NCBI RefSeq assembly: GCF_048403405.1
Contig: NZ_CP183129.1
DNA length: 64,000 bases
From: Escherichia coli
GTDB taxonomy: Bacteria > Pseudomonadota > Gammaproteobacteria > Enterobacterales > Enterobacteriaceae
Direction: 5' to 3' (one strand)
Made by a program: the position numbers and the translations under genes. Positions 41,762 through 41,910 of this stretch are shown here, one piece after another. Numbering within the stretch: position 1 is the first letter of the stretch; every line of letters starts with the position of its first letter. The notes beneath the pieces are model-generated. The model had not been told where the DNA came from, made no database searches, and was given only the letters and a program-made list of their open reading frames with translations.

Positions 41762-41910
41762 CAGCTAGGCTGGGGGTTCCGGAAAGCTTTCAGCTTTGAG
41801 CCAGTTATTAAAACCCCTTTTGATTTGTTAAAACACCTTGCGGTCTGGCAACTGCAAGTGTCAAACAAGAAATCAAAAGGGGGTCCCAATGGGGAACGAA
41901 AAGAGCTTAG

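What the first reader, a model, noticed from the sequence alone, without database searches (positions are those of the whole stretch)
41811..41883. Imperfect inverted repeat just upstream of the gspK remnant
ccccttttgatttgtt (41814-41829) and aacaagaaatcaaaaggggg (41864-41883) form an inverted repeat of about 16 bp separated by about 35 bp, located between the IS4 end and the gspK fragment. It could be a deletion scar, the remnant of a miniature mobile element, or a regulatory hairpin.
Basis: seen in the sequence. Interest (0 to 1): 0.3.

Follow-up and report, generated by a model that had tools for sequence, protein, structure and literature searches.

The report
IS200 transposase translation-blocking hairpin, in a remnant
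The inverted repeat is real, but it is the well-studied RNA hairpin that hides the ribosome-binding site of the IS200 transposase gene, surviving here in a 5' stump of an IS200C element cut off by a 15-kb deletion and split by IS4, so it is ordinary and already explained.

Summary
The repeat exists as described (arms 41814-41829 / 41867-41882, 15 of 16 complementary). It extends to a 26-bp stem-loop at 41814-41883 (-32 kcal/mol, z = -5.7). No comparable repeat appeared in 20 shuffles of the window. It is not a deletion scar or a miniature element. [quoted passage not shown] Published mutations at exactly 41814-41820 raise translation 50-fold. Rfam RF01405 matches at 120 bits. With IS4 and one copy of its 11-bp target duplication removed, 184 of 184 bases are identical to an intact IS200C. 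Locus history: IS200C inserted after the glcA terminator (this state survives in strain RM14723). A blunt 15,291-bp deletion then joined tnpA codon 13 (41927) to gspK nt 561 (41928), removing sslE, pppA, gspS2 and gspC-J. IS4 (40337-41761) inserted into the loop of the IS200 left-end terminator hairpin. The order of the deletion and the IS4 insertion is unresolved. 170 complete E. coli genomes, including CFT073 and ATCC 25922, share the arrangement exactly. The hairpin is a vestige of a known regulatory element. Novelty: already known.

The parts
40274..40309 (+). Terminator-like hairpin plus T-rich tail after the glcA stop codon (stop at 40265-40267). IS200C lies immediately 3' of it.
   Evidence: Sequence. 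The same kind of context (hairpin plus T-run directly before GTGCACAG) is seen at 7 independent IS200/IS1541 sites.
40310..40336 (+). IS200C nt 1-27: the left end and the 5' half of the left-end hairpin (published terminator, nt 12-34), separated from the rest by IS4.
   Evidence: Joined to 41773-41927, it gives 184/184 identity to intact IS200C, 182 nt of the element plus 2 shared flanking T. The left end is fixed at GTGCACAG by independent insertion sites.
40326..40336 (.). Left copy of the 11-bp IS4 target-site duplication, CAGCTAGGCTG (IS200 nt 17-27).
   Evidence: A length of 10-13 bp is typical for the IS4 subgroup.
40337..41761 (+). IS4, 1425 bp, inserted in the loop of the IS200 left-end hairpin. 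It has a 1-bp deletion near 41702 that frameshifts the transposase C-terminus.
   Evidence: Ends TAATGCC...GGCATTA. Annotated as IS4 insG, frameshifted, in the identical locus of strain 2/0. 99.5% identical, with one gap, to an intact 1426-bp copy.
41762..41772 (.). Right copy of the IS4 target-site duplication (IS200 nt 17-27 repeated).
41773..41927 (+). IS200C nt 28-182: the 3' half of the terminator hairpin, the whole tnpA 5'UTR, and tnpA codons 1-13.
   Evidence: 100% identical to intact IS200C over 166 nt. Rfam RF01405 matches 41756-41879 at 120.5 bits against a gathering score of 56.
41814..41883 (+).
   Evidence: Coordinates match the published nt 69-138. The published lower-stem mutations at -75 to -69 fall on 41814-41820.
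41877..41884 (+). tnpA Shine-Dalgarno sequence AAGGGGGT. Seven of its 8 bases lie in the 3' arm of the stem.
   Evidence: The sequence is the one quoted in PMC4513863.
41889..41927 (+). tnpA codons 1-13 (MGNEKSLAHTRWN). Past the junction it reads out of frame into gspK, giving a meaningless 54-aa ORF that ends at 42053.
   Evidence: Intact TnpA continues ...WNCKYHIVF.
41809..41898 (-). Segment homologous to the antisense sRNA art200 (STnc490; IS200 nt 153 to about 64). The transcribed part and the -10 region are retained. The inferred -35 (TTTACA, reverse complement of nt 183-188) has been deleted.
   Evidence: Mapping from PMC4513863 (start at nt 153/154, 90 nt) onto the window. It folds at -35.5 kcal/mol, z = -5.15. 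The position of the -35 is my inference from the sequence.
41927..41928 (.). Deletion junction: IS200C nt 182 joined to gspK nt 561. Blunt, with no microhomology. 15,291 bp are missing relative to strain RM14723.
41928..42345 (+). 3' remnant of gspK of the T2SS-beta cluster, about 139 codons, lacking its first 560 nt.
   Evidence: 97% identical to RM14723 gspK and 96% to CT29 gspK. Annotated as partial GspK in strain 2/0.
42342..44057 (+). gspL (frameshifted, split into ORFs 42342-42953 and 42926-43519) and yghD/gspM (43521-44057): the stranded tail of the T2SS-beta operon.
   Evidence: ORF list. Annotation of the identical locus in strain 2/0.

Best explanation
The inverted repeat is the tnpA 5'UTR stem-loop of insertion sequence IS200 (copy type IS200C), nt 69-138 of the element. 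In the tnpA mRNA its two arms pair, so the Shine-Dalgarno sequence in the 3' arm is buried and 30S subunits cannot bind. This is one of three known layers that keep IS200 transposase almost untranslated; the others are the antisense sRNA art200 and Hfq. The same region is also processed into small RNAs (tnpA-110 and tnpA-90) that act in trans in Salmonella. Here the hairpin sits in a dead 5' stump of IS200C. The element had inserted just after the glcA terminator. A 15.3-kb deletion then removed everything from tnpA codon 14 to nt 560 of gspK, and IS4 inserted into the loop of the IS200 left-end terminator hairpin. With only 13 tnpA codons left, the hairpin has no transposase to regulate, so it is a vestige. 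Shown here: identity, boundaries, locus history, fold. Taken from published experiments on near-identical Salmonella IS200: the repressing function. Inferred: that the remnant is now functionally inert.
For: Identity. Rfam RF01405 matches full length at 120.5 bits against a gathering score of 56, and its consensus structure includes this stem. The stretch is 100% identical to the 5' end of annotated intact IS200C copies and is present in 2,316 of 5,426 complete E. coli genomes. After removing IS4 and one duplication copy, 184 of 184 bases match an intact IS200C.

Coordinates. With nt 1 at 40310, fixed by independent insertion sites, the repeat is nt 69-138 and the ATG is nt 144. These equal the published values (PMC4513863).

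Function. Published lower-stem mutations at -75 to -69 (window 41814-41820) raised 30S toeprinting 20-fold and tnpA-lacZ expression 50-fold. Sittka 2008 describes the same two IS200 stem-loops.

Fold. -32.1 kcal/mol, z = -5.68. The stem is 92.8% paired across IS200C and IS1541 copies, against about 50% for slid registers.

Locus history. RM14723 has glcA, a full IS200C, sslE, pppA, gspS2 and gspC-M, with IS200C at the same site. At least 8 genomes have the uninterrupted left end at this glcA site. The deletion and junction are mapped. The IS4 target duplication is CAGCTAGGCTG. 170 genomes share the exact arrangement.
Against: The covariation test found no two-sided compensatory change in the 6 distinct sequences compared. 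The functional experiments were done on Salmonella IS200, not on this E. coli copy, although the stem sequence agrees with the Rfam consensus at nearly every position. Whether the remnant is transcribed was not tested. The simple sigma-70 scan found no promoter-like site in 41600-42100 on either strand, and the native tnpA promoter is undefined. The primary 1999 paper (Beuzon et al.) is not held and is cited second-hand.
Confidence: 0.95

Rival explanations
1. Deletion scar: the inverted repeat was created by, or marks the end-points of, the deletion that truncated gspK.
For: It lies within 50 bp of a real deletion junction at 41927/41928.
Against: The whole repeat is present, base for base, inside intact IS200C elements at many unrelated loci. 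The junction lies 44 bp downstream of the 3' arm and shows no homology or repeat.
Confidence: 0.01
2. Remnant of a miniature (non-autonomous) mobile element whose terminal inverted repeats are the two arms.
For: It is a short unit of about 70 bp with inverted arms. A diverged (75%) copy of the 5'UTR alone, without tnpA, occurs on 262 plasmid records.
Against: The arms are internal to IS200C (nt 69-84 and 122-138), not terminal. IS200/IS605-family elements have no terminal inverted repeats (established knowledge of the family). There is no target duplication around the repeat. The flanks on both sides, nt 28-68 and 139-182, are also IS200C at 100% identity.
Confidence: 0.01
3. The remnant hairpin is still functional as RNA. 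It would be transcribed, for example by read-through from IS4 now that the upstream terminator hairpin is split, and would yield a 5'tnpA-type small RNA or an art200 sponge acting in trans, as shown for IS200 in Salmonella.
For: The remnant keeps IS200 nt 17-182. That covers the whole region giving tnpA-110 and tnpA-90 (the first ~110 nt of a transcript starting near nt 40), of which the first 50 nt suffice for invF repression in Salmonella. IS4 separates the 5' arm of the terminator (nt 12-34) from its 3' arm, so the block to incoming transcription is gone on this side. The inferred art200 -35 has been deleted, which would relieve cis-antisense control. The arrangement is conserved at 100% identity in 170 genomes.
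Against: There are no expression data. No promoter-like site was found. Genomes with this locus carry other IS200C copies that supply the same RNAs (for example 21 matching places in CFT073), so the remnant would add little. The 100% conservation is explained by clonal descent. The known targets are Salmonella-specific (invF).
Confidence: 0.12
4. The repeat acts at the DNA level as a single-strand hairpin recognised by the IS200 Y1 transposase, like the subterminal hairpins of IS608 or ISDra2, rather than as an RNA element.
For: IS200/IS605-family transposases bind subterminal DNA hairpins (established knowledge). The mini-IS200 that transposed in PMC4513863 used a left end of bp 1-163, which includes this repeat.
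Against: The subterminal hairpin expected for that role is the one at nt 12-34, close to the end. The nt 69-138 repeat has direct RNA-level evidence: toeprinting, structure probing and the lower-stem mutant phenotype. With no tnpA and no right end, the question is moot for this copy.
Confidence: 0.03

Closest known systems
IS200 tnpA 5'UTR stem-loop, nt 69-138 (Beuzon et al. 1999, cited via Ellis, Trussler & Haniford 2015, PMC4513863)
   Same: Same position in the element (nt 69-138). Same SD (AAGGGGGU) in the 3' arm, same 6-nt terminal loop, and the ATG 5 nt after the stem. The lower stem is the segment mutated in the published LS mutant.
   Different: This copy belongs to E. coli IS200C, not Salmonella IS200. 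It sits in a truncated element with only 13 tnpA codons, so there is nothing left for it to repress.
art200 / STnc490 antisense sRNA of IS200 (Rfam RF01405; Sittka et al. 2008, PMC2515195; Ellis et al. 2015)
   Same: The complementary strand, 41898 to 41809, corresponds to the 90-nt art200 transcript and folds into the mirror hairpin. The Rfam family matches well above its gathering score.
   Different: The deletion ends at IS200 nt 182, directly next to the inferred -35 hexamer of the art200 promoter (nt 183-188), so this copy has probably lost its own art200 expression (inference). The Rfam match is on the tnpA-sense strand and spans nt 11-134, not the published antisense nt 153-64.
tnpA-110 / tnpA-90 (5'tnpA) processed sRNAs of Salmonella IS200 (Ellis et al. 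2017, PMC5435999; bioRxiv 10.1101/2024.06.26.600842)
   Same: These are derived from the same highly structured 5'UTR, and the complete corresponding segment is retained in the remnant.
   Different: They have been demonstrated only in Salmonella, with Salmonella targets (invF). There is no evidence here for expression or targets in E. coli.
K-12 type decay of the T2SS-beta locus (yghJ-pppA-yghG-yghF'-yghE'-yghD next to glcA)
   Same: Same chromosomal locus next to glcA, and the same outcome: a non-functional secretion operon. PMC5012682 states that MG1655 has an intact sslE but a mutated downstream T2SS.
   Different: Here sslE, pppA, gspS2, gspC-J and the 5' 560 nt of gspK are all gone in a single 15.3-kb deletion anchored inside IS200C. 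K-12 keeps sslE.

Membership tests
IS200 element (IS200/IS605 family, IS200 group) | Left end, including the subterminal hairpin at nt 12-34 | tested here: met
   Present but split by IS4. 40310-40336 plus 41773 onward restores AACCCCCAGCTAGGCTGGGGGTT at 100% identity to intact IS200C.
IS200 element (IS200/IS605 family, IS200 group) | 5'UTR stem-loop at nt 69-138 with the SD in its 3' arm | tested here: met
   41814-41883, SD at 41877-41884, ATG at 41889. Coordinates as published.
IS200 element (IS200/IS605 family, IS200 group) | Complete tnpA encoding the Y1 (HUH) transposase, about 152 aa | tested here: not met
   Only codons 1-13 remain (41889-41927). The reading frame then runs out of frame into gspK. 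This is therefore a remnant, not an element.
IS200 element (IS200/IS605 family, IS200 group) | Right end with its own hairpin | tested here: not met
   BLAST of a full IS200C plus flanks against the window finds only nt 1-27 and nt 17-182. There is no right end anywhere in the 64 kb.
Rfam RF01405 (STnc490 Hfq-binding RNA) | Covariance-model score above the curated gathering threshold | tested here: met
   120.5 bits against 56, E = 5.6e-25, full-length model match at 41756-41879. The first helix of the model is unpaired because IS4 replaced its 5' arm.
Rfam RF01405 (STnc490 Hfq-binding RNA) | Strand and extent agree with the published sRNA (antisense to the tnpA start, IS200 nt 153 to 64) | tested here: inconclusive
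   The Rfam match is on the tnpA-sense strand and covers nt 11-134. Sittka 2008 and Ellis 2015 place STnc490/art200 on the opposite strand. The match identifies the locus, not the transcript.
Functional art200 antisense gene | Promoter PA with a good -35 and a weak -10 upstream of the start at nt 153/154 | tested here: not met
   The -10 region (TAAGCT) is retained. The hexamer at the -35 position, TTTACA in intact copies, is replaced by ACGCGC from gspK. Assigning the -35 to nt 183-188 is my inference; it is consistent with the paper's description.
Miniature inverted-repeat transposable element | Short unit bounded by terminal inverted repeats and a target duplication, present as isolated copies | tested here: not met
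   The arms are internal to IS200C and both flanks are IS200C at 100% identity. There is no duplication around the unit and no second copy in the window.
Rho-independent terminator | GC-rich stem followed directly by a T-run | tested here: not met
   The 3' arm is followed by TCCCAATGGGG, not a T-run. The terminator scan of 41600-42100 did not flag this site.
IS4 (IS4 family, IS4 subgroup), for the neighbouring element | Size of about 1.4 kb, ends of the form -AATR..., 10-13 bp target duplication | tested here: met
   1425 bp, ends TAATGCC.../...GGCATTA, 11-bp duplication. Family hallmarks from PMC2266710.

The most novel reading that the evidence does not exclude
Two readings are not excluded.

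(a) The stump could be a de-repressed source of a 5'tnpA-type regulatory RNA in the CFT073 / ATCC 25922 lineage. IS4 has split the terminator that normally shields IS200 from incoming transcription, and the deletion has removed the -35 of the antisense art200 promoter.

(b) The loop of the IS200 left-end terminator hairpin could be a previously undescribed insertion hotspot for IS4. IS4 sits at the identical nucleotide, with the identical 11-bp duplication, in an intact IS200C at a second locus (wzzB-hisIE). 320 complete genomes carry such a junction.
Probability: 0.1. Interest if true: 0.3.

Novelty: already known. Interest (0 to 1): 0.07.

Why it matters
It matters little beyond correct annotation. 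The stretch 41762-41927 is unannotated in the reference records seen. It should be labelled as an IS200C 5' remnant carrying the tnpA leader hairpin, and 40310-40336 as the other piece of the same element. The reconstruction also gives a clean three-step history of how the CFT073 / ATCC 25922 lineage lost sslE and most of the T2SS-beta cluster: IS200C insertion, a 15.3-kb deletion, and IS4 insertion. That is useful for people comparing SslE or T2SS content among ExPEC strains.

Tried and rejected
1. Covariation test of the stem on IS200C, IS1541B/C, two diverged E. coli copies and a 75% plasmid copy (6 distinct rows). 92.8% of cells were paired, but there were 0 two-sided changes and the result was no better than shuffles, so it is uninformative.

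2. Sigma-70 promoter scan of 41600-42100. No site was found on either strand, so it gives no support for or against transcription of the remnant.

3. Search for microhomology or repeats at the deletion junction. None were found, so the mechanism of the deletion stays open.

4. Search for intermediates to order the two later events. No genome has the deletion without IS4 (0 records cover at least 80% of the reconstructed IS4-less junction). IS4 in an intact IS200C was found only at another locus. The order of the deletion and the IS4 insertion cannot be decided.

5. Literature search for a described IS4-in-IS200 hotspot. Nothing relevant was found.

6. The SslE paper (PMC5012682) says nothing about the CFT073 deletion.

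7. Beuzon et al. 1999 (PMC148624) is not held.

9. Deletion scar, MITE and terminator readings were rejected, as set out in the rival explanations and membership tests.

Full report
**Observation.** The repeat finder reports arms 41814-41829 and 41867-41882, 16 nt, 94% complementary, 37 nt apart. As RNA, 41814-41883 forms a 26-bp interrupted stem-loop with a 6-nt terminal loop. Its MFE is -32.1 kcal/mol, with z = -5.68 against dinucleotide shuffles, none of which fold as well. Inverted repeats of this quality (16-nt arms, at most 1 mismatch, spacer 3-60 nt) occur at three places in the window and in none of 20 shuffled windows.

**Identity.** Right after the 3' arm the sequence reads AAGGGGGT, then 4 nt, then ATG GGG AAC GAA AAG AGC TTA GCG CAC ACC CGA TGG AAC.
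- Rfam's RF01405 (STnc490, the IS200-associated Hfq-binding RNA) matches 41756-41879 full length at 120.5 bits against a gathering score of 56. Its consensus structure contains this stem.
- Megablast of 41762-41930 against 5,426 complete E. coli genomes finds the stretch in 2,470 genomes. It is usually annotated as the start of 'IS200/IS605-like element IS200C family transposase', and identity is 100% over query positions 1-166 only.
- IS4 is flanked by the 11-bp direct repeat CAGCTAGGCTG (40326-40336 and 41762-41772). The bases left of IS4 (GTGCACAGAAAACCCCCAGCTAGGCTG) are the beginning of IS200C.
- Removing IS4 and one repeat copy gives 184 of 184 identities to an intact IS200C, 182 nt of the element plus 2 shared flanking T, running to tnpA codon 13.
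- Independent insertion sites fix IS200 nt 1 at GTGCACAG, which is window 40310.
- With that numbering the repeat is nt 69-138, the ATG is nt 144 and the last IS200 base is nt 182 at 41927.

**What the hairpin does.** Ellis, Trussler and Haniford (PMC4513863) describe two inverted repeats in the IS200 left end. One, at nt 12-34, is a bidirectional terminator. The other, at nt 69-138, is predicted to form a 5'UTR stem-loop that sequesters the SD.
They raised the 30S toeprint 20-fold and tnpA-lacZ expression 50-fold.
- The SD they quote, AAGGGGGU, is at 41877-41884, and seven of its eight bases lie in the 3' arm.
- The opposite strand encodes the 90-nt antisense sRNA art200 (formerly STnc490), starting at nt 153/154, which is window 41898/41899.
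- The 5'UTR is also processed into tnpA-110 and tnpA-90, which repress invF in Salmonella.
- The mechanism is therefore known and experimentally supported for a near-identical sequence. It was not tested on this E. coli copy.
- My own covariation test on six distinct IS200C/IS1541 sequences was uninformative: 92.8% of cells paired, against about 50% for slid registers, but with no two-sided changes.

**What the locus is.**
- Strain RM14723 has glcA, then a full-length IS200C at the same site, then sslE, pppA, gspS2 and gspC-M. At least 8 genomes have the uninterrupted IS200 left end at this glcA site.
- Relative to RM14723 the window lacks 15,291 bp, from IS200C nt 183 to gspK nt 560.
- The junction is GGAAC|GCGCG at 41927/41928. 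It is blunt and has no microhomology.
- The tnpA ATG now opens a meaningless 54-aa frame ending at 42053. The gspK remnant (41928-42345) is followed by a frameshifted gspL and by yghD/gspM.
- IS4 (40337-41761, 1425 bp) sits between IS200 nt 27 and 28, in the loop of the terminator hairpin. The copy has a 1-bp deletion near 41702 and is annotated as frameshifted in identical loci.
- 170 complete genomes, including CFT073 and ATCC 25922, share the IS4 / IS200-stump / gspK arrangement at 100% identity.
- No genome shows the deletion without IS4, so the order of those two events is open.

**Consequences for the remnant (inference).**
- With 13 codons left there is no transposase to repress.
- The inferred -35 of the art200 promoter is TTTACA on the antisense strand, the reverse complement of nt 183-188, placed 18 bp upstream of TAAGCT. 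It lies just beyond the junction and is replaced by ACGCGC.
- This fits the paper's remark that the -35 is a good consensus match while the -10 is barely recognisable, and that -35 mutants lose art200. The figure showing the boxed elements is not available, so the assignment is mine.
- IS4 has separated the two arms of the upstream terminator, so transcripts leaving IS4 could enter the stump. No promoter-like site was found by the simple scan, and there are no expression data.
- I regard the hairpin as a vestige. A residual role as an sRNA source is possible but unsupported (about 0.1).

The reading is partly supported. 'Regulatory hairpin' and 'remnant of a mobile element' are correct in substance, although the element is IS200C and not a miniature element. 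'Deletion scar' is wrong for the repeat itself; the scar is 44 bp downstream.

**Side observations.**
- IS4 occupies the identical position, with the identical duplication and orientation, in an intact IS200C between wzzB and hisIE in other strains. 320 genomes carry an IS4/IS200 junction, against 170 at this locus. This indicates either an IS4 hotspot in the hairpin loop or spread by recombination between IS200 copies.
- All seven independent IS200/IS1541 insertion sites examined lie directly after a hairpin plus T-run.
- A 75%-identical copy of the 5'UTR alone lies near iss on 262 plasmid records.
- The Rfam model matches the tnpA-sense strand, although the named sRNA is antisense.

**Verdict.** The feature is real, its identification is essentially certain, and its biology is already known. 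Interest is low.

Noticed in passing
window 40326-41772; L012 2608-4070 (also L013, L014): IS4 sits at the identical nucleotide (between IS200 nt 27 and 28), with the same 11-bp duplication CAGCTAGGCTG and the same orientation, in an INTACT IS200C at a second locus, the wzzB-hisIE intergenic region. 320 complete E. coli genomes carry an IS4/IS200 junction, against 170 with the glcA-gspK arrangement. This is either an IS4 hotspot in the loop of the IS200 terminator hairpin or spread by recombination between IS200 copies. I found no description of it in the literature searched.
   Followed up: partly
window 40274-40310; L001 ~1160-1185; L007, L008, L009/L010, L011 ~240-300; L012 ~2570-2608: Every independent IS200C/IS1541 insertion examined (7 sites) begins directly 3' of a hairpin followed by a T-run (a rho-independent-terminator-like structure), with ...TT immediately before GTGCACAG. 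This suggests a strong target preference.
   Followed up: partly
L006 1501-1613 (plasmid p147, NZ_CP023384.1); 262 plasmid records: A 75%-identical copy of the IS200 5'UTR only (terminator half and SD stem-loop, no tnpA) lies about 250 bp from the iss serum-survival gene on IncF/ColV-type plasmids and is unannotated. The upper stem shows changed but still pairing bases (CAGTC...GACTG).
   Followed up: partly
window ~41702 (IS4 nt ~1366): The window's IS4 is 1425 bp, not 1426. It has a 1-bp deletion in a GGCCC run and 6 substitutions relative to an intact copy. This frameshifts the last ~15 codons of the transposase, and the copy is annotated 'frameshifted' in identical loci.
   Followed up: yes
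window 41756-41879: Rfam RF01405 (STnc490) matches the tnpA-sense strand and spans IS200 nt ~11-134, including the terminator hairpin. The sRNA called STnc490/art200 in the literature is antisense and spans nt 153-64. The Rfam family seems to model the sense-strand left end.
   Followed up: partly
window 41928-44057: The stranded tail of the T2SS-beta operon consists of a gspK 3' fragment, gspL split by a frameshift (ORFs 42342-42953 and 42926-43519), and an apparently intact yghD/gspM. sslE, pppA, gspS2 and gspC-J are absent from this lineage's locus.
   Followed up: partly
L008 ~270-300 (Y. enterocolitica IS1541C): The left-end terminator hairpin shows a compensatory change, CCTCC...GGAGG versus CCCCC...GGGGG in IS200C. 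This supports selection on that hairpin.
   Followed up: no
window ~16025-16065 and ~52225-52260: These are the only two other places in the window with a 16-nt inverted repeat with at most 1 mismatch and a short spacer (3-7 nt). They are probably terminators or REP-like hairpins and were not examined.
   Followed up: no
L003 9354-9813 (strain RM14723): The full-length IS200C at the ancestral-like glcA site in RM14723 is itself annotated as frameshifted in tnpA, so that copy is also likely immobile.
   Followed up: no
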